Of a stretch of 64,000 nucleotides of DNA, positions 1-25,776 are shown in pieces. The DNA comes from Candidatus Cloacimonadota bacterium (lineage in GTDB: Bacteria; Cloacimonadota; Cloacimonadia; Cloacimonadales; Cloacimonadaceae). How positions within the stretch are numbered: position 1 is the first letter of the stretch; each line of letters opens with the position of its first letter. The stretch is from positions 27,814 through 91,813 of the forward strand of contig JAKQWO010000036.1 of assembly GCA_029561955.1 (NCBI GenBank), written 5' to 3'. A program made the position numbers and the translations under genes. The notes beneath the pieces were generated by a model that saw nothing but the letters and a program-made list of their open reading frames with translations, ran no database searches and was not told the origin of the DNA.

Positions 1-3000
1 CATTTCGCTTCTTTATCGCAACTCGTTTCGATAATGAAATCAGAAGTTATCTTAAATGTATCTGGACTGGGTGTCTCAGGGGTGCTTACCTCATCATCTG
101 AATCGCCATCTGCTCCCGATTTCATATCATAACCAGCAGAATGAACTATAAATAGTTTTTCCAAAGCGTTGGATACTGCATTTTTTAGAGCTTCTGATAA
201 TTCTTTTTTCTGTGGTTGATTCTCCCAAAAACTCACGATAGCATTGATAGTATTTTTGGCCAAGTCATCAGCATATAGTTCATCGGTAACTATCTTGTCA
301 AAGGTGGGGATATCATCCTCATTTTTGGTACTAGTTTTATTCATGATATATGGCACTGCATATCTGTTGTAAACAGCTTCGAGATATCGCCTCTTTCCTG
401 AGCCATCTTGCTCCGAACCGGATGTATTAAGGTATACTCTAATCTGATTCGGCAAGTCTTTCTTTACGCGACGCATCCACCCTATTCTAAGCTTGTTAAC
501 TAACTTAGCTTCATATTTATTAAAGCTGCTGACAATTGGAGAAGTACTTTCTAACACCAATATCCTCTTGGCTACAGGATCTTTTTCAGCTTTTGTCGGA
601 TACTCGCTTATGATCCCATACATCCTATCAGAAACTATGATGGTACGCAAGGGTAGTTTCTCGAGTATCTCTAATATATCTGTGCACTTTTGGCTGCGAT
701 CAGGCCCCTTATCTTTTTCCCCTAAATTGCTAAGAAAATAGCAGTAGATATTGGTAGTTAAATGCTCTATTGACGGAGAATGGTTACCAGGGCATTCTGG
801 TGAGTTGTCTACATCTTTATCATTGATGACAATGTATTCATAGACAAAATGCTGTTTATCGGTAAGGCTATCTTCAAAATAGATACCATCGCTTCCATAT
901 TCTTTTACCGCTTCTTTATCTACATTGAACCCAACAAACAGAGCAATCTTGGGTTTTTTGATGCAGAATTGGTAGCCAAGATACTCAATATCGGTCCCAA
1001 CTAATATGTTTGTTTTTTTATCATTTTCCATCTTTGACCCTAACTTTAACTTTACTGGAATAGCCTTAATAATGCCACTTCCGGTTTCCTTGTTAAAGAG
1101 AGTAGTCGATTCTTTATCGCTGTCAATCTCATCTTCGTAATCCGTTTCTTTAGCTACATCCATCATGTCTCGTTGCGCCAAGAAGCCAGCGCATATTTTC
1201 ATCTCAGCAAGCCCCCAATGATCCTGTTTTAGTGAACCGAATTCGTCCATAAAGCTCTTACAGAAAAATCCGTTAATTTTCTCGTCTAAGGTCTCGGATT
1301 TTGAGGTCTGGTCGTCTTCATTCTGGCCATCACCCGATTTAGCATCTTCAGGTATTACCACTTGAGAAACATTATCCCATACTTCCACCAAGTAATAGTC
1401 TTTCCTATCGTTGTCTGTAACTTGTAAGTTGATCTCTAGGTTATCATCAGGCTTTTTATCCGACTGCACCCAACTATGCTTTGCACTATTGCGTATGACG
1501 TTTTCTAGTATCGTATAAAAAGCGTGAAAGCCAATAATTCCCCCGGGGATACCGACTTGAAAATCGCGCTTGAATTCTGAGTCTATGATTTTGGAATCTT
1601 CATATACTTTATCATCTTTTTCTTTCCTATACCAGGCATTGAGTTTGATTTCAGACAATCTCTCACTTAATCCGTAGGATAATCCCTCTGCTTGTGCGAT
1701 GAATCTAAGCAGATTTTCCTGTTCGATAAAGCTCTTCCAAAGCTCCCGATAGAATAGCGTCCCATATGTCCATAAGGGAGTGGAACTGGCAATATAAGCC
1801 ACGAATTCCATTCGCCGTTGGATGTAGGAAAACAGCCTGTTATCCTCATCCTTATCCGTATAATTGCTGGTTACGGCAGAGAGTACATGGCTACCGATAT
1901 TGTGGCTGCCGTTACGATTGACGACGGCAGCTATTGCTGCGGTTGCTGACTTTTTAATCGCCTCTGCTTGATAATGCTTCTCTTCGTCAATCAAATAGAT
2001 GCGGTTCTTCAACAGCATTACTTCTCGTAGAGTGTCCCACCTAAAACGGGTGCTATTACCTCCCAATACTATGTATCCACCCACAGCTTCTTCTCTATAA
2101 GACTTCGCATTGTTGGAAGGCTCATCATTGTTGGAAGACTCCGCATTGTTGGAAGACTCCACATTGTTGGAAGACTTATCATTATTGGAAGACTTCGCAT
2201 CCTTTGCAGACGGGTTCTCTCGTAATTGCCATGTATCAATTGAAGGAATATGGTAAAAACAGTTGTCATCCCCGAACCATACAACACTGGCAAAAAGCGA
2301 GTAGAACGTAGAGTCATGTACCCCTTCGTCTAGTTCAGACAAGAGCGAAGCCCACGCGGTATTTCTTCTATAGATGGTCTTAAGATTGTCGACGAGGTTT
2401 ATAAACTTTTTTCGCAAATCTTTAACAGATTTTTGGACGGAGCTTTTCCAAGTTTCAAGCTCTTTTTTAAAGTCCTTTTTATCTTCATTTGACAGGGATG
2501 CTATCACTTCTTCTACTTCTTCGAGATCAAGTAGATAGTTGGTTTTATTCTCGGTGTCCGGTTCTAATTTTTGTATTTTTTCTTCAATCTTAGGCCAAAG
2601 AACATCAAATGATTCTCTTAACTTTTCACGGTTATCACGGGGGATAATAAACTTAACCTTTTCCAGCTTACCAGTTTGAAAAAATTTGATATCGACGTTA
2701 ACTGCATCTCCCAGACGAGTTTCAAGAATGATTTTATCGGGGAATGCTTTAAATAGAAAGCTTGAGATCTTTTTAACCCCCGTGTCGCTGTCGCTCTCAG
2801 ATTGTTTTTCCTGCAGCAAATCCGTAATTAAGGAGTAGCTGCAAAACACTTTCAGTGCTTGCATCTTCGTTCCTGACTCTTTGGTGCTGACAAGCATAGG
2901 TAAATCGTATCGATACTTTTTTTCCTTCACCGACCAGTATAGAGTTACGATGTACAGTGGGTCTTTGATAATCTGATTATCTACCAAAAACCTCGTATCT

Positions 3001-4205
3001 TGGATGATCAAATTGCGAATGTGATTTTTCCGGTCTTCCAGTTCTTTCCCTTCTGCCTGAGGATTTATCATCATTATGGTCTCTGGGAAATGAATATAGT
3101 TCTTCAGCAGTTCGTGTGACCTCTGTACAACTGACCAACCACTGAAACCACAATGACAAGGCTTATCCAAATGAGTTTTTTGATCATCGGCCATCTTGAA
3201 AACTTCAATATTCCAGATATGTCTTGTCTTAAACGTATTCGGCTCGTTTTTGAATATATCATTATGCAACTCCTCAATCCTATCCCTATATACTTTGATC
3301 ATATTATCTGCATTTTCATATTGGGGATATATGTTCACAATGCCATCAAAATGGCCCTTATCGGGGAAAGTCGAAAATTGTGGTGTGCTTTCAGACGCGG
3401 CCTTAATAGACTCAATCCACTTAGTGGGGGTTGTCTGTACCTCGAATGTTTGCGAGATATTCTCGCAATGTTCGAAACCCCTCTCGTGCAACAGATCCCG
3501 ATAAACGCTTATATTGGAAGCAGATGAATATTGCGTATACCGAAACCCAAATTCATCGCAAATCTCTTGGTATTGTATGATGAAGCGCAGCCAATTCACT
3601 CGCTGTTCATCGTCATTATTAAGCTCGCTATGAAGCTGAATATCATATCCCCACTTGTCGTAGGCATTACTCCAGGGGGCTATATCACCATGAGTTTCTG
3701 AAATGCAGATCAAATGCTTATCAGCAAGATATTGCTGTTGCAGAGTTTCCAGTAGTTTTATGGGTTCTTCAAGGAGGTGTAGAATAGAGAAACAAAACAC
3801 CGCATCGAATTTTTCACTATCTTTACTGGGACGCTCAGACGCAACATACTCCTCAACTCTCTTCTCTACAGGGGAAAAAGATACAGTCTCATCCTCGTAT
3901 TCTTCTAGATTGGCCCCGGCATTTTCCAGCATTGCTTTATCCGAATCTACTCCCACAATTTCGATTCTTTTAAAATCGTAGCCATCTTGATCCTCGTGAA
4001 GTTTCTTCACCAAGGCTACACCAAATAACCCTGAGCCAATGCCAAGGTCAAGTATACGAATCTTACTATCCTTCTTGGCTGAATCATTATACAGTTGATT
4101 CAGTTGACCCAGCAGTTTGGTAGCTGCGACTTGAAATCCTTCTGAGGGATTTTCTCCGTAGACTAACTTCTCGGATTCACTTGATATGTATTTTGCGCCA
4201 TCCAT
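1..4205 (-). CDS. Giant multidomain protein, 5' 1401 codons only (C-terminus lies beyond the window edge). N-terminal class I SAM-dependent methyltransferase fused to a histidine-kinase-like (GHKL) ATPase core.
   Basis: Absent from the ORF track because there is no stop inside the window. I checked by hand every in-frame triplet (plus-strand triplets starting at positions divisible by 3) from 4205 down to 3 and found no tta, cta or tca. ATG at 4205-4203 is preceded by GGAGTGAG. Translation begins MDGAKYISSESEKLVYGENPSEG. MTase motif I 'RILDLGIGSGLFG' (~4040-4078), then 'VGVDSD' and 'FDAVFCFSILHL'. H-box-like 'NGSHNIGSHVLSAV' (~1881-1922). N-box 'ILENVIRNSAKHS' (~1480-1518). G2-like 'HWGLAEMKICAGF' (~1190-1227). 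Confidence 0.8.
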   Translation of the reverse strand, partial: MDGAKYISSESEKLVYGENPSEGFQVAATKLLGQLNQLYNDSAKKDSKIRILDLGIGSGLFGVALVKKLHEDQDGYDFKRIEIVGVDSDKAMLENAGANLEEYEDETVSFSPVEKRVEEYVASERPSKDSEKFDAVFCFSILHLLEEPIKLLETLQQQYLADKHLICISETHGDIAPWSNAYDKWGYDIQLHSELNNDDEQRVNWLRFIIQYQEICDEFGFRYTQYSSASNISVYRDLLHERGFEHCENISQTFEVQTTPTKWIESIKAASESTPQFSTFPDKGHFDGIVNIYPQYENADNMIKVYRDRIEELHNDIFKNEPNTFKTRHIWNIEVFKMADDQKTHLDKPCHCGFSGWSVVQRSHELLKNYIHFPETIMMINPQAEGKELEDRKNHIRNLIIQDTRFLVDNQIIKDPLYIVTLYWSVKEKKYRYDLPMLVSTKESGTKMQALKVFCSYSLITDLLQEKQSESDSDTGVKKISSFLFKAFPDKIILETRLGDAVNVDIKFFQTGKLEKVKFIIPRDNREKLRESFDVLWPKIEEKIQKLEPDTENKTNYLLDLEEVEEVIASLSNEDKKDFKKELETWKSSVQKSVKDLRKKFINLVDNLKTIYRRNTAWASLLSELDEGVHDSTFYSLFASVVWFGDDNCFYHIPSIDTWQLRENPSAKDAKSSNNDKSSNNVESSNNAESSNNDEPSNNAKSYREEAVGGYIVLGGNSTRFRWDTLREVMLLKNRIYLIDEEKHYQAEAIKKSATAAIAAVVNRNGSHNIGSHVLSAVTSNYTDKDEDNRLFSYIQRRMEFVAYIASSTPLWTYGTLFYRELWKSFIEQENLLRFIAQAEGLSYGLSERLSEIKLNAWYRKEKDDKVYEDSKIIDSEFKRDFQVGIPGGIIGFHAFYTILENVIRNSAKHSWVQSDKKPDDNLEINLQVTDNDRKDYYLVEVWDNVSQVVIPEDAKSGDGQNEDDQTSKSETLDEKINGFFCKSFMDEFGSLKQDHWGLAEMKICAGFLAQRDMMDVAKETDYEDEIDSDKESTTLFNKETGSGIIKAIPVKLKLGSKMENDKKTNILVGTDIEYLGYQFCIKKPKIALFVGFNVDKEAVKEYGSDGIYFEDSLTDKQHFVYEYIVINDKDVDNSPECPGNHSPSIEHLTTNIYCYFLSNLGEKDKGPDRSQKCTDILEILEKLPLRTIIVSDRMYGIISEYPTKAEKDPVAKRILVLESTSPIVSSFNKYEAKLVNKLRIGWMRRVKKDLPNQIRVYLNTSGSEQDGSGKRRYLEAVYNRYAVPYIMNKTSTKNEDDIPTFDKIVTDELYADDLAKNTINAIVSFWENQPQKKELSEALKNAVSNALEKLFIVHSAGYDMKSGADGDSDDEVSTPETPSPDTFKITSDFIIETSCDKEAK
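2099..2198. repeat. In-frame 18-bp tandem repeat, five full units plus a partial one, inside the giant ORF
   Basis: Units at 2109-2126, 2127-2144, 2145-2162, 2163-2180 and 2181-2198, each of the form att[ga]ttggaag[ag]ct plus 4 variable nt. On the coding strand they encode AKSSNN DKSSNN VESSNN AESSNN DEPSNN. Confidence 0.9.
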
Positions 4206-4212
4206 AATATTC

Positions 4213-4416
4213 TCACTCCAATTCCCCAACCTTGATGTCATACTCAAGTGTTTTGCCAAAAAACTTTGATACACCTGTAAACAAAGCTTCTTTGTGCACT
4301 TTGTACTTGTTGATTAACTCTGCTTCCTCTTGAGTGAGCTCAACCTGAGCTCTGAGCTCAAATGAGATACCGCCCAAAAGGCCTTTCGACTGATCGCGAG
4401 TGATCGTTAAGATCAT
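4213..4416 (-). CDS. Hypothetical 67-aa protein
   Basis: ORF track. Stop lies 7 nt upstream of the giant ORF start and start lies 12 nt after the preceding gene. I recognise no motif. Confidence 0.55.
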   Translation of the reverse strand: MILTITRDQSKGLLGGISFELRAQVELTQEEAELINKYKVHKEALFTGVSKFFGKTLEYDIKVGELE

Positions 4417-4428
4417 TTCCTTTCTCCT

Positions 4429-4650
4429 TTACGAATATACGACAACTCTGCCGCTTAAATATCCTTTATGCACCCTGGAACCGCTGACAAAGACCTCTCC
4501 CTCGCCGGGGTCAGCATTCAGGTGCACTTCGCCATTGCTATTTGTGTATCCCTCCAATCCACCGCGCAGCAGCCCGGAAAAGGAGACATACACCTTCCTG
4601 CCACTCAGGGGCTTCCCTGTCGATTTTGAATACACTTGCACGGTAATCAT
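4429..4650 (-). CDS. Hypothetical small beta-rich protein (73 aa from ATG 4650; a GTG at 4662 would give 77 aa)
   Basis: ORF track 4429..4662. The internal ATG at 4650 is preceded by GTGAGG. 'ITVQVYSKSTGKPLSGRKVYV...GYTNSNGEVHL' resembles a carboxypeptidase-regulatory-like beta-sandwich (weak, by eye). Confidence 0.5.
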   Translation of the reverse strand: MITVQVYSKSTGKPLSGRKVYVSFSGLLRGGLEGYTNSNGEVHLNADPGEGEVFVSGSRVHKGYLSGRVVVYS

Positions 4651-4658
4651 TTTTAACC

Positions 4659-5195
4659 TCACTTTATCCTTATTGGTTCTGTTTTGTAAACGCCGGCTGA
4701 AGAACCGGTGAGATAGACGTCATTGACATATATTTGCTCGATCATGTAATCTTCCAGGCTGCTAAAGAAATCCAGGCCAAGAAATTGGATGAATTGGACG
4801 ATGGTGCCCGACAGTCCGGATTTATAGACCACCAATCTCACCCGCATCCATTTGTTCCAGGGGATTTGCGTGCCGGTCTGGGCAACGTTTTCCCCTTTCT
4901 TGATAAAGCTGTCTGCATAGTAAATAAAGGCGCTGTTTGACCTATCCCTGATGTCCACACCCACATTGGCGCCGGGGCCGTTGATGATCCAAATGGCCGA
5001 ACCTTGGATGGTATTTGGGATAAAAAACATCTCTGTATTGCCCATGATATTGGGGTCTGGCCCCAGATGAGTCACTCCATCCCTATTGTTGTCCATGAGT
5101 GTGATGCGGGCTGGATCCTCAGAGCAAGACACGGTAAAAAGCATAAGCAAAACCACCAAAACTGGTGCGAATTTGGAAATCTTCTTAAGCATCAT
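4659..5195 (-). CDS. Putative lipoprotein, 178 aa
   Basis: Signal peptide plus lipobox-like 'LFTVSC'. AGGAG lies 4 nt upstream of the ATG. The stop overlaps the next gene's alternative GTG (gtga). Confidence 0.65.
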   Translation of the reverse strand: MMLKKISKFAPVLVVLLMLFTVSCSEDPARITLMDNNRDGVTHLGPDPNIMGNTEMFFIPNTIQGSAIWIINGPGANVGVDIRDRSNSAFIYYADSFIKKGENVAQTGTQIPWNKWMRVRLVVYKSGLSGTIVQFIQFLGLDFFSSLEDYMIEQIYVNDVYLTGSSAGVYKTEPIRIK

Positions 5196-5337
5196 GCTAC
5201 TCCTTTTTGGTATTATTGAGCTGAAAAATGGACGTTTCTCTGGATTAAATATCTAAGCGGAGCCGTAAACCAGCATCCTGCCATGGTCTTTAAATCTTTA
5301 TATTTCATTACTCACCCCTTGCAATCATATGGGGCGC

Positions 5338-5365
5338 ATACTAACTGAAGGGCTTTTCTTGTCAA
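5338..5365 (-). promoter_or_regulatory. Sigma70-like promoter candidate for the 5195->1 operon
   Basis: On the minus strand: TTGACA (5365-5360), 16-nt spacer, TAGTAT (5343-5338), about 140 nt upstream of the ATG at 5195. Confidence 0.4.
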
Positions 5366-5454
5366 TAACAATGTTTTGATTTGCCTATTTTGAGGGTTTA
5401 ATGTCTTGGGTTTGGGTTTTGTCCGGCTCTGCGAGAGATTTGTGGTTTTTTCTT

Positions 5455-5810
5455 GCTCAAACTCCTACTAAAATAGTAGGCATTCCCAAGTGACGACCGA
5501 CACCGGAAAAAGTAGGGCTTTCTGAAAAATTTGACCTACGCACGGGGAAAAGTTACAGGAAACGGCCCATTTTGACCCTCCTCAAAGCCGCTGTTTATGC
5601 GGCGTCCCTGCCCCGCCCCTGCTCGGCTCCTCCTCCATCGAGCAGGAACGGCATAGGATACCAAGAGGTTACGAGTTTGGGCGGAGTAGGCGCTCAGAAA
5701 GAGGTGAACCTTTTCAAAAAGGCAAATGTCTCGAAAACATCTGGTTTTTGCAAGGAAATTAAGGCCCCAAAATGCACACTTTTTCAACAAACGTGAACCG
5801 GCTTCACTGA
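5455..5810 (+). repeat. Dispersed ~350-bp intergenic repeat, family A, copy 1
   Basis: Aligns by eye over its whole length with 31771-32125 (reverse complement) and 55795-56140. It opens with the hairpin CCTACTA-AAA-TAGTAGG (5464-5480). Confidence 0.85.
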
Positions 5811-5927
5811 CTGGATTTTCCCACGGATGAACACGTATTTTCACGGATGTGTGAGGAAAGGAATTGACCAGTATCAATTGTGAGCGTTCTGGTGAAGCAT
5901 CTCGACCTAAATCATCAATCTGTCGCT

Positions 5928-5955
5928 TTGTTTTTCACAATTTTCAGCGTATTAT
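5928..5955 (+). promoter_or_regulatory. Promoter candidate for the 5990-7453 cassette
   Basis: TTGTTT (5928-5933), 16-nt spacer, TATTAT (5950-5955), 35 nt upstream of the ATG at 5990. Confidence 0.3.
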
Positions 5956-5989
5956 ATATAGCAGAGAAAGCAAGATTCAGGAGTAGAAT

Positions 5990-6853
5990 ATGACCTCGTT
6001 CAGCAACTCAGTTACCACATCTCAAAATATTGATGCGGTTGTAGCCAGCAGCCTGAAAACAAGCATCAATCGCTTTCGCGAGAGGCCTTTGTTGTTTTTT
6101 ACCGAAGCAGATATCCAAACCTATCTGCACAAAGACCTGATAAGCCGTAATACGCAACACATGACTCTCGATGAGGGAAGGATTTCCCTGATCCACCGTG
6201 AGTACCCCACAAATTTCAGATACGAAAAATCCCGGCTTCTTGAGGGGTATTCAGATAAAGATTTGATTGAGACCGATCTTACGAATCAGTCCATTAAGAG
6301 TAGAGGACATTTTGACCTGGTAGTATTGAATCCCAAGTTCCTCGCAAAAATGACCAAAAAGTATGGTGTAATAAACGAGATGATCGCGGAAATCATCAAT
6401 AAAAACGTGAATAGGGCAATTGGCAGATTTAAAGAACCCAATAGTGAGCACGATAAGGAAATTCTATATGCGATTGAGATCAAATATCTGCATATGTTCA
6501 ACTGCAATAGTGCCTCCATGTTGGATCAGATACAGATGGACAACGAAAAGCTCAGCATTGCTCTGAGGCGCACCGATAGCTTTATCAAGCCGATCAACAT
6601 TGTATTCAGCTCTTCAAATTCGCCGAATAACGTAAAGTCGTACATGACACATGGGGAGCTTGTTCGCCGTTCAACCGAGAAAGTGTACCGGATCAAGAGT
6701 GGCATCTTGAACATCTATGTGGAAGCGTATCATGATGATGAGAATAAGAAATACACAAACAAAAAAGATGGTGGGCTGATAGCCTATTGCAAAGACCCTC
6801 AGCCATGGGCGATTACTCTGTGTGAAAAACTTATGATTAAACTAAATAGTTAG
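5990..6853 (+). CDS. Hypothetical protein with a PD-(D/E)xK nuclease-like motif set, 287 aa
   Basis: ORF track. Motifs 'FTEADIQTYLHKDL', 'GHFDLVVLNP' (D109) and 'YAIEIKYL' (E163-x-K165). AT-rich. Confidence 0.6.
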   Translation: MTSFSNSVTTSQNIDAVVASSLKTSINRFRERPLLFFTEADIQTYLHKDLISRNTQHMTLDEGRISLIHREYPTNFRYEKSRLLEGYSDKDLIETDLTNQSIKSRGHFDLVVLNPKFLAKMTKKYGVINEMIAEIINKNVNRAIGRFKEPNSEHDKEILYAIEIKYLHMFNCNSASMLDQIQMDNEKLSIALRRTDSFIKPINIVFSSSNSPNNVKSYMTHGELVRRSTEKVYRIKSGILNIYVEAYHDDENKKYTNKKDGGLIAYCKDPQPWAITLCEKLMIKLNS

Positions 6854-6868
6854 ATAAAAGGAGATTAC

Positions 6869-7453
6869 ATGCACAGTCCACACCAATTATCCGTATCAAA
6901 TGATGTATTTGATAAAGCCGTTAAAGCGACAGCCATTGTGAAGAAACAACGAATACGCTCTGTTCAGGAAAGGCTTCATGATCTCACTTCCTTAAAACTT
7001 GTGCCAAAACAGTGGAACAAAGGCTCAAGCAGTGGTGCTCAAAATGATGATCGGGAAAAGATAAAACCCATTCCGGTCAAGATCATTGAGTTTAAAGTGG
7101 CAGATATCATGAGAGCCATGCGCTGCGACAATGAGTTTGAATTTTGGGGACGAGTTCTCTCAGTCCTCCACAGGGATACCTTCGAGTGTCATGAGGATTT
7201 GTTTATAACTGAAAACAGAGGGATGGTATTAGAGCAACTGGAGAGGATAGAAGAGAGAATCATCAGAATAGATTATTCAAAAGAGATCCCCGCTATTGAT
7301 GATGTACTCGGAGTCTTTTTCCCCTGTAGTAGGAAGGATTTCACCCCAATCTTAGAGCCATGGATAGAGCTCTATCCTCAAGTGATAGCCTACTTCTCGT
7401 TTGTTCTGGGTGTTTCTGCACAAAATTTGGCAACCGTTACGGGCGGTCGCTGA
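6869..7453 (+). CDS. Hypothetical protein, 194 aa, partner of the preceding gene
   Basis: ORF track. Lies 15 nt downstream of the previous stop with AAGGAG upstream. No recognisable motif. Confidence 0.55.
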   Translation: MHSPHQLSVSNDVFDKAVKATAIVKKQRIRSVQERLHDLTSLKLVPKQWNKGSSSGAQNDDREKIKPIPVKIIEFKVADIMRAMRCDNEFEFWGRVLSVLHRDTFECHEDLFITENRGMVLEQLERIEERIIRIDYSKEIPAIDDVLGVFFPCSRKDFTPILEPWIELYPQVIAYFSFVLGVSAQNLATVTGGR

Positions 7454-7756
7454 ACCGCCGCTCTAAGGCAGCGGATGTGTTCCATCGGCACTCGGACGAG
7501 TGTCGTTAAGGTCGGTGTGGCGAGTGCACATCGACGTGGTGAGCTGCGCTGGTGATGGGGCTGAAAGAGTTTGTGGTGTAGATGACTGTGGTTTTTTGGG
7601 ATAGGTCGAAGCAGGCTGGGCCTGCTAGCGGCGGTATGGCAACCGCCGGCTACCTTGGGTCGGTGCGGCTGACGCCGGTACCTTCGGTGCGCGGCGAGCG
7701 ACCGTACAGGGGTATTTTATGACGGGATGTTTTTGGGGAGAGTGAACCTGGTTGGT

Positions 7757-9625
7757 CTACTTCTCCATCGGCACGACAATGCCTTTGATGATAATGTTTT
7801 GGAAGAAGATAAACACAGCCAAGGTGGGGATGGCGGCGATCACCAAGGCGGCATAACCAACGCTGCTGCTGGCTCTTTGCATCAGGTTGTAGATGTGCAC
7901 CATCAGCGTCCACATGGATTGATCCTGGCAGACGATGAAGGCGAAGAGGAAGTTGCGGTAGGCGGCATTAAAGGCACCTAAGGCGATCACGGCTAATATG
8001 GGTTTGGAGAGCTGGAGCGTGAATTGCCAAAAGAGGCGGAATTCTCCGGCACCGTCTAACATTGCACTTTCGTAGATTTCTTTGGGCAGGCTGTCGAAGA
8101 AGCCTTTGAGCAAAAAGATGAAGTAGCCATCCGCAGCAGCGGGCAGCACCAGAGCCCAGAAGGTGTTGAGCAGATTGAGCTTCTTGAGCATGAGGAAGTT
8201 GGGGATGGCCATCACCATCGCGGGGAAGGCCATGGTGAGCATGAAGAGCATGATGATCTGGTAGCTGAAGCGTGGTTTGAAGCGGGAAAGCGCATAAGCG
8301 GCCAGAGGGTTGACCGTGATGGCAAACAGGATGGAAAGCAGCACATATACAAGCGTATTGCGCAGGGAGTGAGCGTCGCTGAGCATCTGTTCCAGAGCCA
8401 TTTTATAGTTGCGGGTGATGAATTCCCAACGGATGCTGCCCTTGCGATCTTTGAAGCTGTAATAGTCCATCTCCTTGCTGGGGAAGCTGATCTCTTGCCA
8501 GTCTTGCAGGCTCATGCCCCAGGCAAGGTTGAGGGAGTCGAGGCTGCCATATTTGCGTCTCAGGAAGTTACGGAAATCCTGGGCCAGGTTTTTGATCCTG
8601 ATCTGATGGGGCAGGGCTTTGTTTTGGATGAAGTGCACCAAGTCTTCCACCAAGGCACCGCTATCCGGCAGTTGGGATGGGATCTGCACCTGGTCAAAGG
8701 AGGTGTAGGAGCTGCCGTAGGTCTGGTTGAGGGCGGCGATGGTCTCATATTTCTGCTGTAGTCCGGCTCGGAAGGGGGCGAGGGCGTCCTCGGAGATGTC
8801 CAAGTGATGCACGTTGATGGCGTTTTTGGCGGTGTGGAGCCAGGCTTCCCTCAGTGGATGTCCTGCGGGCGGACAGCTCTCGGGCAATTTGAGCTGGTCA
8901 AAAGAGCTGTAAGAACTTCCCAAAAGCCGGTTAAGTTTGTTCAGATCGCCGTTTACCATGGGGATGACTTCGCTATTGACGAAGAAGCCATCAGGGTTGA
9001 TGAAGAGCTTTTGCTGCAGCGGACGGGATTCTTTGAACTGGCGGAAGCGTCCCAGATAGCCTTCAGTGGAGCTGGTGAAGATGCGCCCCATGATCTCCTT
9101 TTCTTCCACGCTGATCTCTTCCCAACTGACTGCGCCGGTGCCGTATTTGCGGTTGAATTCGACTAACGAGTTGTCGTTTTCCTCACGCAGGATTTTGCGG
9201 TATTGACGCTGCGCCAAGGGATAGACGCCACGGCCATAGTGTTCGGCCACGTAATAGTGGTAGACGCCGTATTCGGCCTTGGTGATAAACTCTTGCCAAT
9301 CCTGGTAGATAGCGGGGTTGGCGTCCTGAGGTAAGGTCACTTCGGCAAAGGAAATCCAGGATCCGGGGTAGTTGTCCATCAAGCGGCTGCTTTCCTCGTT
9401 GTAACGGCTTTCCAGATACTTTTTGTAGAGGGCTTCATCGCTGTAGAGGTAGGCCGGAATGAGCTCCATGCGGGTGCTGTCCACGGCACTTTTGATGGAG
9501 GAGGAGAGCATCAGCACAAAGGGGTAGATCATGGTGATGGAGCCAAGGATCAGCAGCAGATGGATGCAGAGGTTGAGGATGCGGGTTTTGGGGTCTTTGC
9601 GTGCTACTTTGCCGATGATGCTCAT
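7757..9625 (-). CDS. Carbohydrate-type ABC transporter permease (MalG-like) with a ~390-aa extracytoplasmic insertion
   Basis: C-terminal EAA loop 'EIYESAMLDGAGEFRLFWQFTLQLSKP'. One N-terminal TM segment, then a long soluble segment, then further TM segments. Confidence 0.8.
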   Translation of the reverse strand: MSIIGKVARKDPKTRILNLCIHLLLILGSITMIYPFVLMLSSSIKSAVDSTRMELIPAYLYSDEALYKKYLESRYNEESSRLMDNYPGSWISFAEVTLPQDANPAIYQDWQEFITKAEYGVYHYYVAEHYGRGVYPLAQRQYRKILREENDNSLVEFNRKYGTGAVSWEEISVEEKEIMGRIFTSSTEGYLGRFRQFKESRPLQQKLFINPDGFFVNSEVIPMVNGDLNKLNRLLGSSYSSFDQLKLPESCPPAGHPLREAWLHTAKNAINVHHLDISEDALAPFRAGLQQKYETIAALNQTYGSSYTSFDQVQIPSQLPDSGALVEDLVHFIQNKALPHQIRIKNLAQDFRNFLRRKYGSLDSLNLAWGMSLQDWQEISFPSKEMDYYSFKDRKGSIRWEFITRNYKMALEQMLSDAHSLRNTLVYVLLSILFAITVNPLAAYALSRFKPRFSYQIIMLFMLTMAFPAMVMAIPNFLMLKKLNLLNTFWALVLPAAADGYFIFLLKGFFDSLPKEIYESAMLDGAGEFRLFWQFTLQLSKPILAVIALGAFNAAYRNFLFAFIVCQDQSMWTLMVHIYNLMQRASSSVGYAALVIAAIPTLAVFIFFQNIIIKGIVVPMEK

Positions 9626-12060
9626 TGGTCGTCTCCGCTTGCCACTCTGGACTCCATGCGGGAGATGTGTTTGATCTGCATGACGGTAAAGCCCATCAGC
9701 ATCAGGCTGAGCAGCCAGGCCATGGTGGTGGCAAGGCCAAATTTGAGGTAGAGGTAGGCCTTCTCAAAGATGAGCAGGTCTGCCACGCGGGTGGCTTCGT
9801 TGGGGCCGCCGAAGGTCATCACCAAGATGAAGTCGCTGGATTGGGCGGCGATGATGAAGGCGGCGATGAGTTGGATGATGATCAGGGCTTTGAGGCTGGG
9901 GAAAACGATGTGCCGCAGTTTGGCAAAGAAGCCGGCACCATCGATGTCTGCCGCTTCGTAAAGTTCGTTGGGGATGTTCTTTAGGGCTGCCAGGTAGATA
10001 AGGGAACCGGGGCCAATGCCTGCCCAGATACCGGGTAAAACCACGCAAAGCATGGCCAGCTTTTCGTCTTGAATCCACTGGCTTTTGGGGAGACCCAAGG
10101 CCATCAGGATTTGGTTGAGTGCACCTGCATCGCCGGGGTTGTAAAGCAGCTTCCATAGGTAGATTACGATCACGCCACTGATCACGGCGGGCAGGTAAAA
10201 GATCACGCGGTAGATGAGTTTGCCGTGGGAAACTTCCTGCAACATGATGGCCAGGACGATGGAAGGCCAAAAGCCGAGGCCGATGGATAAAGCCATGAAA
10301 TACAAGGTTCTGCCTACGCTGGCCCACCAGGTGGCGTCGAAGAGGACTTCGGCCAGATTGCCAAAACCAACCCAGGGGCTGTGGCCTACGAGCTTGTAGT
10401 CCTGTGCGGCCATCACGGAGCCGGAGATCAGCGGCACGTATTTCCACATGAAGATACTGATCACGGCGGGAGCTAAGAGGATGACGATCCAGAAGGTGCG
10501 GCGGGAGCTTTTGCTGTGGGTGATGCGGTGTTCGGGAGTGAGGATTTTCCATACTTTCCAGAGGGTGAAGCCAAAGGCAAAGAGGATGAGGGCGGCGATC
10601 ACAGCGGCTAAACGCTCTCGCTTGATCTTCTCTGCCTTGGGCAGGATGCCGATCATCTCTTTATTTGTGCGGTCTTGGGCAGCTTGCAGGATTTTGAGGA
10701 TGTTGGCTCTGCGGATCTGGGGATCGGTGCCCAATTTGCCGCTGCGATCCAGCTTGATCAGCTCCTCCAGGGGGTAGGTCATGAATTCGTAGACCTTCTG
10801 ACAGTTGTCGCCAAAGGGTTCGGGTTTGCCCTCGTTCATGGCGGTTTGGAAGGTCTCCAGCCAGCCTGCGGGGGAGTGGCGCAGCAGCTCATCGTAGCCG
10901 TAACGCTTGAGGAAGACAGGGTTTTGCACGCGGCCGTAGCCGTTTTCCACCATCACCTTGAGGCGGATCTTGCGGGCTTCCTCGCTATCGTAAAACTTGA
11001 TGTATTCCCAGGCGGCCTGACGAACTTCGGCGGCGTTCCTATCGCCCAAACCGGCGTTGTTGCTGATGCCCGCGCCGCTGAAGATGCCCATCATGCGGCA
11101 GTTGATCTCGCTGCCACCCTTGCCGGCGGGGCCTTGGGGAGCAGGAGCAAAGCCGTAGAGGTTGGGGTCGTAGCGTCCGCCCATGTTTTGCTGGGAGAGG
11201 TAGTCCATGCGCATGGCGATCTTACCTTCCGTCCAGTAGTAGCCCCAGTCGCCATCCCGCATGGAATAGCCCTCTTGGGGGCGGCCATGCTTGTCTGTCC
11301 AGGGGGTGTTGAGGATTTTGAGGTAGTATTCTGCGGCGTCCACGCCTGCTTCGGAGGCGAAAGCGGCTTTCCACTGCTGGGCTGCTTCATCCCAGACAAC
11401 CGCATCGCCGCCAGCAGCCCAGAGCAAGGGTAGCCAATCGTAGGCGGCTTGAGGGCCGGAGGCCAAAACGGTGCCATAGTAGTTGGTGGCGGGATCGCTG
11501 AGCTGGGCGGCATATTGCATGAATTCATCCCAGTCTTTTGGGGAGCGGTTGGGGTCTAAACCTGCCTTCTTGAAGACATCCTTGCGATACATGAGCACGC
11601 GCACCAAGGTCTCGTAAGGCAAAATCCAAATCTTCTCCTCATCTTTGCCCTTCTGCTTGCGCTTGATTACCTGCCAGACAGGCTTTTCCACTCGGAGCTT
11701 GAGCAGTTCGGAGTCCTCCTTGGCGATGAATTCGTCCAGAGGGTAAAGGAAGTTGTTTTGGATGTAAGTGTCGCTTTGGCGGAAGTTTACATAGAGGATG
11801 TCGGGTGCCACACCGCCGGCGATGGCCATGAGAGGAGCGGCGTCTAAATCCATCTTGTCGATCTTGATACCGGAAAAGGCGCGCAGCTCGATGTGGGGAA
11901 ACTTCTTTTTGAAAGCTTGCACCACGGCGGCATTTGCTTTGGAAGCAGCATCCGTGGCACGTGGGTCTGGCAGCTCAAAGACTTTGAGCACCACCGCTGA
12001 AAGCTGGGCGAGTGTGCTCAGCAGCAGGATGATAAACCAGATTCTACAAGCTTTCTGCAT
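9622..12060 (-). CDS. Fusion of an extracellular solute-binding protein and a MalF-like ABC permease, 812 aa
   Basis: Signal anchor, ~470-aa family-1 SBP-like region, then TM segments with EAA loop 'ELYEAADIDGAGFFAKLRHIVFPSLK'. 4-nt overlap with the downstream permease. Confidence 0.75.
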   Translation of the reverse strand: MQKACRIWFIILLLSTLAQLSAVVLKVFELPDPRATDAASKANAAVVQAFKKKFPHIELRAFSGIKIDKMDLDAAPLMAIAGGVAPDILYVNFRQSDTYIQNNFLYPLDEFIAKEDSELLKLRVEKPVWQVIKRKQKGKDEEKIWILPYETLVRVLMYRKDVFKKAGLDPNRSPKDWDEFMQYAAQLSDPATNYYGTVLASGPQAAYDWLPLLWAAGGDAVVWDEAAQQWKAAFASEAGVDAAEYYLKILNTPWTDKHGRPQEGYSMRDGDWGYYWTEGKIAMRMDYLSQQNMGGRYDPNLYGFAPAPQGPAGKGGSEINCRMMGIFSGAGISNNAGLGDRNAAEVRQAAWEYIKFYDSEEARKIRLKVMVENGYGRVQNPVFLKRYGYDELLRHSPAGWLETFQTAMNEGKPEPFGDNCQKVYEFMTYPLEELIKLDRSGKLGTDPQIRRANILKILQAAQDRTNKEMIGILPKAEKIKRERLAAVIAALILFAFGFTLWKVWKILTPEHRITHSKSSRRTFWIVILLAPAVISIFMWKYVPLISGSVMAAQDYKLVGHSPWVGFGNLAEVLFDATWWASVGRTLYFMALSIGLGFWPSIVLAIMLQEVSHGKLIYRVIFYLPAVISGVIVIYLWKLLYNPGDAGALNQILMALGLPKSQWIQDEKLAMLCVVLPGIWAGIGPGSLIYLAALKNIPNELYEAADIDGAGFFAKLRHIVFPSLKALIIIQLIAAFIIAAQSSDFILVMTFGGPNEATRVADLLIFEKAYLYLKFGLATTMAWLLSLMLMGFTVMQIKHISRMESRVASGDDQ

Positions 12061-12073
12061 GGGTGTTTTCTAC

Positions 12074-13384: not shown

Positions 13385-13394
13385 TGATATCTCC

Positions 13395-25626: not shown

Positions 25627-25639
25627 CGAATCCTTATGG

Positions 25640-25666
25640 AGCCCGCCTTTTGGTGGGCTTTTTTAT
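25640..25666 (+). terminator. Intrinsic terminator after the HU / small-peptide genes
   Basis: AGCCCGCC, TTTT loop, GGTGGGCT, followed by TTTTTTA. Confidence 0.75.
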
Positions 25667-25776
25667 TGGCCAGACTGCGCAGGATAAAGTCCGGCTCTCA
25701 CAATCCTATTGACAGTTTCGTGAGCTGGGAATTGCATGACCTCCAAATATCAGAACACAATGAAAGGGTAAAAGTA

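What the first reader, a model, noticed from the sequence alone, without database searches (positions are those of the whole stretch)
1..4205. Unlisted 1401-codon ORF: SAM-methyltransferase fused to a histidine-kinase-like ATPase core, running off the window edge
The ORF track shows only ORFs of 124 aa or less across the first 4.2 kb. However, one minus-strand frame is open from ATG 4205 to position 3. I verified this triplet by triplet. It was evidently dropped from the track because it has no stop inside the window.

The N-terminus carries class I MTase motifs ('RILDLGIGSGLFG', 'VGVDSD', 'FDAVFCFSILHL'). About 750 aa further in there is an H-box-like 'NGSHNIGSHVLSAV'. Some 130 aa after that lies a kinase-type N-box 'ILENVIRNSAKHS', a degenerate G1 ('VEVWDN') and a G2-like 'HWGLAEMKICAGF'. 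This spacing is typical of a DHp-plus-CA histidine kinase core.

The translated part has no TM segment and no clear receiver domain, and at least 450 aa of unknown sequence follow the kinase-like core. The gene is AT-rich compared with the core genome and lies next to nuclease-like cassettes and dispersed repeats. I cannot assign a cytoplasmic methyltransferase-kinase giant of this kind to any named defence or modification system.
Basis: partly seen in the sequence, partly recalled or inferred. Interest (0 to 1): 0.78.

Follow-up and report, generated by a model that had tools for sequence, protein, structure and literature searches.

The report
Giant methyltransferase-fused histidine kinase family
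The unlisted open frame is real and encodes most of a 1643-residue cytoplasmic protein that joins a SAM-methyltransferase domain to a very divergent histidine-kinase core; it belongs to a large, unnamed kinase family that normally sits in operons with an amino-acid/peptide ABC importer and sigma-54 response regulators, not in defence islands.

Summary
Observation confirmed. The minus-strand frame 4205..3 has no stop in 1401 codons. Identical metagenome contigs extend it to a 1643-aa protein with a stop codon. The N-terminus is a class I SAM methyltransferase by Pfam, above threshold. The 'kinase-like' part fails sequence thresholds (HATPase_c 15 bits, no HisKA).

The gene is not an orphan. An exhaustive HMMER search found about 2000 cluster representatives of an unannotated family. 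Members share the kinase core and a C-terminal module of unknown function, with variable N-termini; 11 of 33 members with long N-termini carry a methyltransferase. In 54 species, neighbours are receiver-domain proteins (42 loci), ABC-importer genes (36) and Liv-type binding proteins (26), often behind sigma-54-type promoters. No known defence gene was seen.

The closest relatives carry REC–LivHMGF–binding protein–kinase–NtrC-type regulator. This genome has lost the importer, and its regulator has lost the AAA+ domain.

Best reading: a cytoplasmic sensor histidine kinase of a new family, here in an eroded operon. The defence or DNA-modification reading is not supported. Interest is moderate.

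The parts
3..4205 (-). First 1401 of 1643 codons of the methyltransferase-kinase gene ('T'). It runs off the window at position 1. The alternative starts at 4241 (ATG) and 4274 (GTG) are in frame.
   Evidence: Translation without a stop. Exact match to P0173, 1643 aa, on 13 contigs, and 100% DNA identity to L083/L084, which carry the stop codon. The frame is open upstream in L001.
3537..4079 (-). Class I (Rossmann-fold) SAM-dependent methyltransferase domain, aa 43-223. Motif I is ILDLGIGSG, the acidic residue after beta-2 lies in VGVDSD, and FDAVFCFSILHL follows.
   Evidence: Pfam matches above gathering score: Methyltransf_31 (1.3e-8), _12, _23, _25 and _11. There is no [DNS]PP[YFW] or PCQ motif.
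2099..2200 (-). 18-nt tandem repeat, 5.7 copies, encoding the (SSNNxx)n low-complexity linker at aa 672-699. Its length varies between strains.
   Evidence: Tandem Repeats Finder. Cluster member P0182 is 1614 aa and departs from the window protein mainly from about aa 660 on, so an indel near or in this repeat is likely.
1785..2021 (-). Predicted DHp-like helical hairpin, aa 729-807, carrying the invariant RNxSHNxGSH motif. The candidate phospho-acceptor is His768 (codon 1902-1904). The second invariant His is His773.
   Evidence: The AF2 model of the core shows helices at 2-52 and 58-80. Foldseek top hits are all DHp+CA kinases. R764, S767, H768, G771, S772 and H773 are present in 227-228 of 228 aligned relatives.
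936..1769 (-). Divergent GHKL/HATPase_c-type catalytic (CA) domain, aa 813-1090. The N-box is ILENVIRNSAKH (E901, N902, N906). The G1 box is degenerate (VWDN, D944). An insert of about 50 aa follows. The G2-like motif is HWGLAEMK (G998, E1001).
   Evidence: Pfam HATPase_c reaches only E 0.025 and 15.4 bits, below the gathering score of 26.4. The AF2 alpha/beta domain with Foldseek gives YycG 4zki TMt 0.65 and 5c93 TMt 0.62. Conservation: E901 230/231, N906 228/231, G998 and E1001 227/227, D944 only 167/232.
3..935 (-). Poorly conserved region after the kinase core, aa 1091-1401. The family-wide C-terminal module (P0173 aa about 1389-1643; motifs RH, YxExLSGSQ, IDER, IIHQGxxDK, TSGRG) begins just at the window edge and lies almost wholly outside the window.
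   Evidence: Coverage profile of relatives. Alignment A2. Neither region is shown to be a receiver domain: hhalign probability 0.4% and 4%, and Foldseek best E 0.19.
4213..4416 (-). 67-aa ORF immediately upstream. It is tightly packed with T and has no relatives in other loci.
   Evidence: No Pfam or PADLOC hit.
4429..4650 (-). 73-aa ORF (77 aa from an upstream GTG), with no relatives in other loci.
4659..5195 (-). 177/178-aa predicted lipoprotein gene at the head of the gene string. It is conserved, partly at 86%, next to the related system in L090.
   Evidence: A sigma-70-like site lies at 5365-5338 on the minus strand, but this is only a weak consensus match.
5457..5825 (-). Copy 1 of a ~370-bp dispersed repeat, just upstream of the gene string. 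The other copies are at 31757-32126 (+) and 55844-56073 (-).
   Evidence: blastn at 86-87% identity. Alignment A6. No Rfam family at gathering score.

Best explanation
The ORF encodes a soluble, cytoplasmic sensor histidine kinase of a previously unnamed, very divergent family, called 'T' here.

Domain layout:
- An N-terminal SAM-binding class I methyltransferase domain serves as the input or accessory module.
- A lineage-specific region of about 500 aa follows.
- Next is a DHp helical hairpin whose helix 1 carries the invariant RNxSHNxGSH. The likely phospho-acceptor is His768 (inferred).
- A GHKL catalytic domain follows, with a canonical N-box, a degenerate G1 box and a long lid insert.
- After a variable linker comes a conserved C-terminal alpha/beta module of unknown role.

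Proposed mechanism in the family at large (inferred):
- T autophosphorylates and passes phosphate to receiver proteins encoded in the same operon.
- These receivers are a single-domain REC, an NtrC-type sigma-54 activator and REC proteins with novel output domains.
- The regulator in turn drives a sigma-54 promoter in front of the operon. That operon also encodes an SBP-dependent ABC importer, of the Liv type for amino acids or the Opp/Dpp type for peptides.
- T would therefore report on the imported substrate or on SAM/methylation status from inside the cell.

In this genome the system is a reduced derivative. The REC-LivHMGF-SBP genes and the sigma-54 promoter are gone. The NtrC-type regulator has lost half of its receiver domain and its whole AAA+ domain. 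T remains, together with the conserved 232-aa and 248-aa proteins, the REC-like 540/547-aa protein and the 588-aa multi-TM protein. If signalling persists, it most likely runs from T to the 547-aa REC-like protein.

Shown: the ORF, the domains, the fold, the family, the synteny and the erosion.
Inferred: kinase activity, the phospho-acceptor residue, the partners and the signal.
For: ORF and full length.

Methyltransferase domain.

Kinase fold:
- The AF2 model of the 410-aa core has pLDDT 79 and pTM 0.83, with a two-helix hairpin plus an alpha/beta domain.
- 56 PDB matches have E<=0.001, and the 50 listed are histidine kinases or close relatives: WalK 9a5d, HK853 3dge/4jav, CpxA 4biz, YycG 4zki, ZraS, DesK, CheA, DivL and phytochrome kinase modules. 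All have probability 0.97-1.0.

Conservation in 232 relatives: H768 and H773 228/228, E901 230/231, N906 228/231, G998 and E1001 227/227.

Family size and modularity:
- 2013 representatives at E<=1e-3 and 978 at <=1e-10. Two conserved modules sit beside variable N-termini.
- 184 relatives were found among GTDB species genomes, across many bacterial and some archaeal phyla.

Neighbourhoods, from 54 species loci with at least 3 genes on each side:
- A REC-containing neighbour in 42.
- An ABC ATPase in 36.
- Peripla_BP_6 in 26.
- NtrC/REC cluster in 22.

Pfam identities of the neighbour clusters: Response_reg, BPD_transp_2, ABC_tran, Peripla_BP_6, Sigma54_activat+HTH_8, SBP_bac_5, BPD_transp_1, Radical_SAM and a stand-alone methyltransferase.

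Further neighbour evidence:
- The binding proteins carry signal or lipoprotein leaders and resemble Leu/Ile/Val-binding proteins.
- Crude H-box, N-box and G1 pattern scans find no other kinase candidate among 889 neighbour proteins.
- Sigma-54-type sites (TGGCAC-N5-TTGCW, at most 1 mismatch) lie 28-215 nt upstream of the REC, SBP or ABC genes that head these operons in at least 9 loci. Two more are seen in L090 and L091. My estimate of the chance expectation is about 0.4.

Methyltransferase coupling:
- 11 of 33 long-N-terminus members carry a fused class I methyltransferase.
- In 6 loci a separate methyltransferase gene sits directly upstream of T.

Ancestry of the window's operon:
- L003/L091 (Kiritimatiellae MAG) and L090 (a close relative of the window organism, with ackA-ppx-chrA-gcpE 70-95% identical at protein level) both carry REC-LivHMGF-SBP-T-x-c16-NtrC-c9.
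- The window species' 124-aa gene aligns to residues 1-79 and 403-472 of the 473-aa regulator, at 65% and 59% identity.
- The 547-aa protein matches a REC profile with 89% probability and keeps the LLVDD and ILD motifs.
Against: - No sequence profile certifies a kinase. HATPase_c is below threshold, there is no HisKA hit, and the family profile finds no PDB kinase by sequence.
- The G1 box lacks its glycines. The adenine-contacting Asp is present in only 72% of relatives, although it is present in this protein.
- Foldseek TM-scores normalised to the query are low, at 0.2-0.38. Large inserts and DHp/CA orientation contribute to this.
- The acidic residue that normally follows the phospho-His is Asn here.
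- In this genome the obvious partner regulator is truncated and the importer is absent, so the pathway may be non-functional.
- The 13 nucleotide differences between two strains are 10 non-synonymous against 3 synonymous, with 6 aa changes clustered in the linker at aa 1338-1360. This gives no sign of purifying selection at that scale.
- The role of the methyltransferase domain and of the C-terminal module is unknown.
- The stand-alone methyltransferases are only weakly similar to the fused ones.
Confidence: 0.6

Rival explanations
1. A Detocs-like defensive two-component system. T senses infection, phosphorylates REC-effector proteins, and these arrest or kill the cell. In this genome the candidate effectors are the 547-aa REC-like protein with the 588-aa multi-TM protein. 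In other loci they are REC-PIN-like and other REC fusions.
For: - The architecture of kinase, stand-alone REC and REC fused to non-DNA-binding domains resembles Detocs as described in 10.1101/2023.01.24.525353.
- Several downstream families carry REC plus unknown domains: c5, c8, c9 and c14. One of them, c8, has a weak PIN_4 match at E 0.0011.
- Distribution is very patchy across phyla, including archaea and CPR.
- The gene string has low G+C compared with the rest of the window.
- The 124-aa protein matches PADLOC candidates PDC-M60B and PDC-M60C weakly, probably through REC alone.
Against: - There is no PNP domain or other known effector domain, and no PADLOC system hit for T or its neighbours.
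- The commonest partners are SBP-dependent importers with exported binding proteins and a sigma-54 transcription activator. These are hallmarks of nutrient or signal regulation.
- The family is absent from 72,556 plasmids and 50,697 phage records, and occurs in only 1 of 2.9 million IMG/VR contigs.
- Flanking genes in this genome are metabolic: sugar ABC, pyrimidine-nucleoside phosphorylase, HSP20 and ackA.
Confidence: 0.12
2. A nucleic-acid modification or restriction-type system. The methyltransferase domain would methylate DNA or RNA, and the GHKL domain would act as a MORC/MutL-like ATPase rather than a kinase. This is the reading the first-stage note leaned towards.
For: - PADLOC MTase_II matches at E 1.5e-4, 18.8 bits, aa 47-136.
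- Giant methyltransferase-ATPase fusions do occur in BREX/DISARM-type systems (own knowledge).
- G+C is low.
Against: - The PADLOC match covers only the generic SAM-binding motifs. The best Pfam families are small-molecule or protein methyltransferase types: Methyltransf_11/12/23/25/31, with UbiG, PrmC and CmoA in NCBIfam.
- There is no motif IV ([DNS]PP[YFW]) and no PCQ.
- The fold matches are to DHp+CA kinases, not to MORC, MutL, GyrB or Hsp90.
- The N-box is of the kinase type, NxxxNAxKH.
- No nuclease, helicase or specificity gene is conserved nearby.
- Most family members have no methyltransferase at all.
Confidence: 0.04
3. A GHKL-fold protein that is not a phosphotransfer kinase. It would be a pseudokinase, scaffold or ATPase that regulates the ABC importer or the SAM enzyme directly. 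The invariant RNxSHNxGSH would serve another role, such as metal or ligand binding.
For: - The G1 box is degenerate and its Asp is missing in 28% of members.
- Two invariant histidines with invariant Ser and Gly around them are unusual for an H-box.
- No sequence profile recognises HisKA.
- A conserved C-terminal module of unknown function is present in most members.
Against: - REC proteins are the most consistent neighbours, in 42 of 54 loci, and no alternative kinase is seen.
- The N-box Asn and Glu and the G2 Gly are invariant, which argues for nucleotide binding.
- The invariant His lies on helix 1 of the hairpin, where phospho-His sits in HK853-type kinases.
Confidence: 0.15
4. A decaying remnant. 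After loss of the importer genes, the sigma-54 promoter and the regulator's AAA+ domain, the kinase gene in this species is no longer under selection and has no function.
For: - The operon is eroded relative to L090 and L091.
- Strain differences are 10 non-synonymous against 3 synonymous.
- There is an in-frame 23-aa duplication in the C-terminal module and a strain-variable repeat linker.
Against: - A 1643-codon frame at 40% G+C stays intact and identical on 13 contigs from independent metagenomes.
- Every family-invariant residue is retained.
- Four downstream genes are also intact and 32-60% identical to those of a Kiritimatiellae MAG.
- The regulator's deletion is in frame and keeps the DNA-binding end.
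Confidence: 0.09

Closest known systems
Canonical HisKA/HATPase_c sensor histidine kinases (HK853, WalK/YycG, CpxA)
   Same: - Predicted DHp helical hairpin followed by a GHKL catalytic domain.
- An invariant His on helix 1.
- A kinase-type N-box, NxxxNAxKH.
- A G2-like glycine.
- Operon partners with receiver domains.
   Different: - The sequence is below every profile threshold (HATPase_c 15.4 against 26.4 bits, no HisKA hit).
- The H-box is RNxSHNxGSH, with Asn instead of the acidic residue and a second invariant His.
- The G1 box has lost its glycines.
- The lid insert is about 50 aa or longer.
- The protein has no membrane segments and is 1000-1900 aa long.
- It carries an extra conserved C-terminal module.
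NtrB/NtrC-type two-component systems (sigma-54 dependent)
   Same: In relatives, a REC-AAA+(Sigma54_activat)-HTH_8 regulator is encoded two genes downstream. Sigma-54-type promoters precede the operon.
   Different: - The kinase is unrelated in sequence to NtrB and about four times larger.
- The operon includes an ABC importer and SAM enzymes.
- In this genome the regulator has lost its AAA+ domain.
Transporter-coupled sensing (BceS-BceAB, PhoR-PstSCAB-PhoU, SBP-dependent kinases reviewed in PMC8050422)
   Same: There is a tight genetic link between a kinase and an ABC transporter with its binding protein. A BceAB-S structure appears among the fold matches, for its kinase part.
   Different: Those kinases are membrane proteins that touch the transporter or the binding protein. 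T is soluble, so any coupling would have to be cytoplasmic. No interaction has been tested.
Detocs (DtcA kinase, DtcB stand-alone receiver, DtcC receiver-PNP effector)
   Same: A kinase, a stand-alone receiver and receiver proteins fused to non-DNA-binding domains sit in one operon.
   Different: - There is no PNP effector and no TPR sensor.
- There is no PADLOC hit.
- The system is linked to importers and a sigma-54 activator.
- It is not found on phages or plasmids.
Chemotaxis CheA-CheR pairing and CheR-fused multidomain kinases
   Same: A cytoplasmic kinase is genetically coupled to a class I SAM methyltransferase. Two family members match the CheR SAM-binding domain at 2e-5.
   Different: - For this protein the CheR match is only E 0.075.
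- There are no MCP, CheW or CheB genes nearby.
- There is no CheA-type P1-P5 architecture.
- This resemblance is a lead from my own knowledge, not a tested relation.

Membership tests
Class I SAM-dependent methyltransferase (Rossmann fold) | Profile match above the curated threshold | tested here: met
   All above their gathering scores, aa 43-223: Methyltransf_31 35.1 bits (GA 27), _12 34.8 (30), _23 32.4 (27), _25 27.9 (27) and _11 23.0 (21.2).
Class I SAM-dependent methyltransferase (Rossmann fold) | Motif I (E/D-x-G-x-G-x-G) and an acidic residue at the end of beta-2 | tested here: met
   ILDLGIGSG at aa 51-59 and VGVDSD at aa 84-89. The GxGxG and downstream Asp columns are in the majority consensus of alignment A5.
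Class I SAM-dependent methyltransferase (Rossmann fold) | SAM binding, methyl transfer and identity of the substrate | not testable with these tools
   Needs biochemistry.
DNA methyltransferase of an R-M or defence system | Catalytic motif IV ([DNS]PP[YFW]) or PCQ, a target-recognition domain, and a partner nuclease | tested here: not met
   No such motif in the 1643 aa. PADLOC MTase_II reaches only 18.8 bits over the SAM-binding region. No nuclease is conserved in the neighbourhoods.
Histidine kinase (DHp + CA) | HisKA-type and HATPase_c profile matches above threshold | tested here: not met
   HATPase_c E 0.025, 15.4 bits against 26.4. No HisKA-family hit even at E<=10 on the isolated fragment. 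The family profile finds no PDB kinase by sequence.
Histidine kinase (DHp + CA) | DHp helical hairpin followed by a Bergerat-fold catalytic domain | tested here: met
   The AF2 model has pLDDT 79 and pTM 0.83. The 50 listed PDB matches are histidine kinases or close relatives, probability 0.97-1.0, E from 5e-6, and TMt up to 0.65. This rests on a predicted structure, not a solved one.
Histidine kinase (DHp + CA) | Conserved phospho-acceptor His on DHp helix 1 | tested here: met
   H768 and H773 are invariant, 228/228, and lie in model helix 2-52. Which His is the acceptor was not determined.
Histidine kinase (DHp + CA) | N-box Asn (Mg-ATP), G1 DxGxG and G2 GxGxG | tested here: inconclusive
   The N-box is intact and invariant (E901, N902, N906, K909, H910). 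G1 is reduced to W-D-N, with Asp in 72% of relatives. G2 is reduced to W-G-L-A-E, with an invariant Gly and Glu.
Histidine kinase (DHp + CA) | Cognate receiver-domain partner encoded nearby | tested here: met
   Family: 42 of 54 loci, with Pfam Response_reg in clusters c3, c5 and c14 and hhalign REC matches in c8 and c9. This genome has a truncated NtrC-type gene and a 547-aa REC-like protein at 89% probability.
Histidine kinase (DHp + CA) | Autophosphorylation and phosphotransfer | not testable with these tools
   Needs biochemistry.
Hybrid histidine kinase (C-terminal receiver domain) | A receiver domain with its Asp pocket after the CA domain | tested here: not met
   - C-terminal module against a REC profile: probability 4%.
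- Post-CA region: 0.4%.
- Foldseek of the module's model (pLDDT 75): best E 0.19, with only scattered receiver hits at probability <=0.25.
- The position I had provisionally equated with the acceptor Asp is an invariant His, IIHQG.
Detocs defence system | DtcA kinase, DtcB stand-alone receiver and DtcC receiver fused to a PNP or other toxic effector | tested here: not met
   There is no PNP or known toxic domain in the neighbours and no PADLOC system hit. A stand-alone REC is present in relatives but absent in this genome. The Detocs HMMs themselves were not available.
T family (defined here) | Core with RNxSHNxGSH, ILENxxRNxAKH and WGxAE, plus a C-terminal module with RH, YxExLSGSQ, IDER, IIHQGxxDK and TSGRG | tested here: met
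   The window protein, or its exact full-length form, carries every invariant. The relation to relatives is strong, E 1e-291 to 1e-36 for the best 150.

The most novel reading that the evidence does not exclude
The T family defines an undescribed cytoplasmic signalling pathway. A giant soluble kinase with a new type of H-box integrates SAM-dependent chemistry with the activity of an amino-acid or peptide ABC importer. The SAM enzyme is a fused or adjacent methyltransferase, or a radical-SAM enzyme. Output goes through receiver proteins with entirely novel output domains (c5, c8, c9, c14 and the c10 membrane protein).

Two forms of this reading are possible. One is a methylation-based adaptation or imported-signal sensing circuit, analogous to CheA/CheR or to peptide quorum sensing. 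The other is a Detocs-like immune pathway with new effectors.
Probability: 0.2. Interest if true: 0.75.

Novelty: new variant of a known kind. Interest (0 to 1): 0.48.

Why it matters
If the reading is right, about 2000 protein clusters that current annotation leaves as 'hypothetical' are histidine kinases. No Pfam or NCBIfam model covers the core, and none of the database entries seen carries a real name (only 'hypothetical protein'). Censuses of two-component systems therefore miss them, mostly in uncultured lineages: Kiritimatiellia, Lentisphaeria, Calditrichia, KSB1, Bacteroidia and Acidobacteriota, plus some Asgard, DPANN and CPR genomes.

The divergent H-box and glycine-poor ATP lid would widen what counts as a functional DHp/CA core.

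The recurrent fusion or adjacency with SAM enzymes and ABC importers gives a concrete, testable hypothesis about how a soluble kinase reads out transport or methylation status.

For this window specifically, the result removes a false lead, since the gene is not a defence or modification giant. It also documents an operon caught in the middle of erosion or rewiring.

Tried and rejected
- **C-terminal receiver domain (hybrid kinase).** I suspected this from the patterns ILIIDER, IIHQG, TSGRG and KxxPF. It was rejected as unproven: hhalign 4%, Foldseek best E 0.19.
- **Receiver-like stretch straight after the CA domain.** Rejected at 0.4%.
- **Card1_endonuc, Exo70_N, GRAS, Cauli_AT, Phage_scaffold and FlgN Pfam hits.** All are below threshold, on coiled or low-complexity stretches or inside the CA domain, and were treated as noise.
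- **k-mer-indexed protein search with the whole protein.** It found only 2 relatives. The family appeared only with the exhaustive HMMER search.
- **First genome scan with single-protein patterns.** It found nothing. The species representative apparently lacks the locus or is not in the collection.
- **Sequence searches of PDB.** The protein, the core profile, and the c9 and c10 profiles gave nothing significant.
- **Literature.** Searches for the motif strings and for methyltransferase-kinase fusions found no description.
- **The 73-aa and 67-aa ORFs as remnants of the lost importer genes.** No similarity was found.
- **Orthology of the stand-alone and fused methyltransferases.** Only weak similarity, E about 2e-6 to two members, so the 'Rosetta stone' argument is suggestive only.
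- **Within-species dN/dS.** There are too few differences (13 nt) to interpret.
- **Organism identity.** It was not established. T9SS sorting domains and C25 peptidases suggest an FCB-type bacterium, but that comes from my own knowledge.

Full report
**1. The observation**

- Translating window 4205..3 on the minus strand gives 1401 codons without a stop. The mechanical ORF list has nothing above 124 aa in that span, because ORFs that run off the source are not listed.
- At the local composition (40.3% G+C) the chance of such a frame is about 1e-43.
- The start is not fixed. The ATG at 4205 follows GGAG and the stop of a 67-aa ORF. The frame is also open to an ATG at 4241 and a GTG at about 4274, and gene callers have used both 1643-aa and 1655-aa versions.

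**2. Recovering the whole gene**

- A k-mer-indexed search found a 99%-identical 1655-aa protein (P0001) and one distant relative.
- The 90%-identity cluster of P0001 contains P0173 (1643 aa). Its first 1401 residues equal the window translation exactly. It is called on 13 contigs from independent ENA, JGI and Logan assemblies.
- Contigs L083 and L084 are 100% identical to window 1..14205 and continue beyond position 1.
- The gene ends at a normal stop. It is followed on the same strand by genes of 232, 248, 124, 540/547 and 588 aa, then two 448-aa DUF4139/4140-like paralogues, HSP20 and an acetate kinase.
- Upstream lie three tightly spaced small genes (67, 73 and 177 aa) and a dispersed repeat.

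**3. Domains**

- *Methyltransferase.* The N-terminus (aa 43-223) matches five Pfam class I methyltransferase families above their gathering scores. The NCBIfam neighbours are small-molecule, protein or tRNA methyltransferases. There is no DNA-methyltransferase motif IV or PCQ, and no hydrophobic segment of TM strength.
- *Kinase core, sequence level.* HATPase_c reaches only 15.4 bits against a 26.4 threshold. No HisKA-type model hits even the isolated fragment.
- *Kinase core, fold level.* An AlphaFold2 model of the 410-aa core was built on a 24-sequence alignment of relatives (pLDDT 79, pTM 0.83). It shows a long two-helix hairpin followed by an alpha/beta domain. Foldseek against the PDB gave 56 matches at E<=0.001. 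The 50 listed are histidine kinases or close relatives: WalK, HK853, CpxA, YycG, ZraS, DesK, CusS, CheA, DivL and phytochrome kinase modules.
- *Conservation in 232 aligned relatives.*
  - R764, S767, H768, G771, S772 and H773 of RNxSHNxGSH are present in 227-228 of 228.
  - The N-box residues E901, R905, N906, K909 and H910 are near-invariant, as are G998 and E1001 of the G2-like WGLAE.
  - The G1 box has lost its glycines, and its Asp is kept in 72% of relatives, including this protein.
- I conclude that the core has the fold and the conserved residues expected of a DHp+CA kinase. It is too divergent for current profiles. The family profile also finds no PDB kinase by sequence.
- *Remaining 550 residues.* These are a poorly conserved linker and a C-terminal module of about 200 aa with invariant RH, YxExLSGSQ, IDER, IIHQGxxDK and TSGRG motifs. 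I suspected a receiver domain, but neither profile comparison (4%) nor Foldseek (best E 0.19) supports that. The stretch just after the CA domain is not a receiver either.

**4. The family**

- An exhaustive HMMER scan of 1.84 billion cluster representatives, with aa 202-1401 as query, returned 2013 proteins at E<=1e-3, 978 at <=1e-10 and 257 at <=1e-30.
- Relatives share the core and usually the C-terminal module. N-termini vary, and most members have no TM segment.
- Among 33 members with long N-termini, 11 carry class I methyltransferase domains, one a GAF domain and one a radical-SAM domain.
- No source gives any of the family proteins seen a descriptive name, only 'hypothetical protein' for three. 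Only one methyltransferase-bearing member has precomputed Pfam hits.
- In one genome per GTDB species, 184 relatives were found. Nearly all are in MAGs, scattered over Kiritimatiellia, Lentisphaeria, Calditrichia, KSB1, Bacteroidia, Acidobacteriota, Nitrospirota, Planctomycetota and Clostridia, with some Asgard, DPANN and CPR genomes.
- The core has no tblastn match in PLSDB plasmids or INPHARED phages, and only one in IMG/VR.

**5. Neighbourhoods**

I called ORFs in 82 loci and clustered them.

- The commonest arrangement is: single-domain REC, two LivH/M-type permeases, two ABC ATPases, a Peripla_BP_6 binding protein, T, two small conserved proteins, an NtrC-type REC-AAA+-HTH_8 activator, a ~545-aa protein (c9) and a ~650-aa multi-TM protein (c10).
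- The binding protein has a signal or lipoprotein leader and resembles Leu/Ile/Val-binding proteins.
- A second arrangement replaces the Liv-type importer by an Opp/Dpp-type one (SBP_bac_5, BPD_transp_1) and adds a radical-SAM protein.
- A third arrangement has a stand-alone class I methyltransferase immediately upstream of T.
- Downstream, several families combine a receiver domain with unknown domains: c5, c8 (with a weak PIN_4 match), c9 and c14.
- Counts over 54 species loci with at least three genes on each side:

| Neighbour | Loci (of 54) |
|---|---|
| Receiver-containing gene | 42 |
| ABC ATPase | 36 |
| Peripla_BP_6 | 26 |

- Crude pattern scans found no other kinase candidate among 889 neighbour proteins.
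- Sigma-54-type promoter matches lie 28-215 nt upstream of the first genes of these operons in at least nine loci, and again in L090 and L091. From the searched length I estimate about 0.4 expected by chance.

**6. This genome's copy**

- Two relatives give the ancestral layout.
  - L091 (= L003, a Kiritimatiellae MAG) has a T protein collinear with P0001 from aa 61 to the end, at 35% identity and including the methyltransferase. Its five downstream genes are in the same order, at 32-65% identity.
  - L090 carries the closest T (47% identity over aa 44-1643). It comes from a close relative of the window organism, since its ackA-ppx-chrA-chrA-gcpE block is 70-95% identical to window 16.5-20.3 kb at protein level.
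- Both relatives have REC-LivHMGF-SBP upstream of T. Both have a TGGAAC-N5-TTGCA site 28-29 nt before the REC gene, and an intact 471/473-aa NtrC-type regulator.
- In the window species the importer, the stand-alone REC and the promoter are missing.
- The regulator is reduced to 124 aa: residues 1-79 of the receiver joined in frame to the C-terminal HTH.
- This layout is the same on all the contigs examined.
- The system here is therefore a reduced derivative. T keeps every family invariant, and the frame is intact. The few strain differences (10 non-synonymous, 3 synonymous, six aa changes clustered in the linker) do not demonstrate constraint.

**7. Interpretation**

- The best-supported explanation is a soluble sensor histidine kinase of a new family. 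Its normal job would be to control, through co-encoded receiver proteins and a sigma-54 activator, an operon that includes an SBP-dependent importer.
- The methyltransferase domain is a recurrent fused or adjacent partner. Its substrate and role (enzyme, SAM/SAH sensor or adaptation device) are unknown.
- Kinase activity, the acceptor residue and the partners are inferred, not shown.
- I put this at 0.6.
- Rivals:
  - a GHKL protein that is not a phosphotransfer kinase (0.15);
  - a Detocs-like defence pathway with new effectors (0.12; architecture from 10.1101/2023.01.24.525353);
  - a functionless remnant in this species (0.09);
  - a DNA/RNA-modification defence system (0.04).

**8. Comparison with known systems, and novelty**

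- T works like, and by fold looks like, a HisKA-type kinase, but it fails the sequence-profile criteria. I therefore file it as a new variant of a known kind, not as a member of any named Pfam or NCBIfam kinase family.
- It is not a hybrid kinase, not Detocs, not an R-M or BREX-type methyltransferase, and not CheA/CheR.
- Searches of the held literature for the motif and for the architecture found no description. This does not exclude a description in journals outside the library.

**9. Verdict**

- The implied defence or modification role is not supported.
- Interest is moderate (0.48): a sizeable unannotated kinase family with an unusual H-box and a consistent, unexplained link to SAM enzymes and ABC importers, seen here in an eroded operon.

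Noticed in passing
window 5457-5825 (-), 31757-32126 (+), 55844-56073 (-): A ~340-370-bp dispersed repeat occurs in three copies at 86-87% identity. Each copy lies about 185-260 nt upstream of a gene start, in the same orientation relative to that gene. The genes are the 178-aa lipoprotein gene heading the T gene string, the AAA_21 ATPase gene at 32310, and the RnfC gene that starts at 55657. Two copies border low-G+C stretches. There is no Rfam family at gathering score. Metagenome contig L001 ends inside copy 1.
   Followed up: partly
window 32310-38335: A second low-G+C stretch (40-44%) carries an AAA_21/AbiEii-type ATPase (376 aa), two ORFs of 180 and 247 aa, and a 1036-aa HerA/DUF87-like ATPase. 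It looks like a defence-type cassette, unrelated to the finding.
   Followed up: no
L083 16390-16764 (beyond window position 1): The 124-aa gene downstream of T is an NtrC-type sigma-54 activator with an in-frame internal deletion. This deletion removes the second half of the receiver and the whole AAA+ domain and joins REC residues 1-79 to the C-terminal HTH. The same 124-aa gene is called on every contig examined that extends that far (L083-L087).
   Followed up: yes
window 2099-2200: An 18-nt tandem repeat (5.7 copies) inside the ORF encodes an (SSNNxx)n linker. One strain variant (P0182, 1614 aa) is 29 aa shorter and departs from the window protein mainly from about aa 660 on.
   Followed up: partly
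P0173 aa about 1573-1606 (beyond the window edge): There is an in-frame 23-aa tandem duplication (GDPRLEKGNID ... GDPRLEKGNID) inside the conserved C-terminal module, next to the invariant TSGRG motif. It is absent from the nearest relative P0003.
   Followed up: partly
L090 9727-10001: In the closest relative, the N-terminal ~50 residues of T are in a different frame (the 54-aa ORF) from the rest. This is either a frameshift or an assembly error just before methyltransferase motif I.
   Followed up: partly
window 15657-16856 and L083 23755-24932: Two acetate kinase genes flank the region about 30 kb apart. They show no blastn similarity to each other. Relative to L090 the ackA-ppx-chrA-gcpE block is inverted, so the locus has been rearranged.
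   Followed up: partly
window 7757-12060 (-): There are two unusual fusion ORFs in a sugar-type ABC cluster. One is an 812-aa SBP_bac_1 + BPD_transp_1 fusion. The other is a 622-aa ORF with a GH42-like segment + BPD_transp_1.
   Followed up: no
window 25636-30726 (+): A 1696-aa ORF combines a gingipain-like C25 peptidase (with propeptide and Ig-like domain) with a Porphyromonas-type peptidyl-arginine deiminase.
   Followed up: no
family-wide (alignment of 232 relatives): About 28% of family members lack the adenine-contacting Asp of the G1 box while keeping the H-box and N-box invariant. This suggests either an altered ATP lid or a non-catalytic subgroup.
   Followed up: partly
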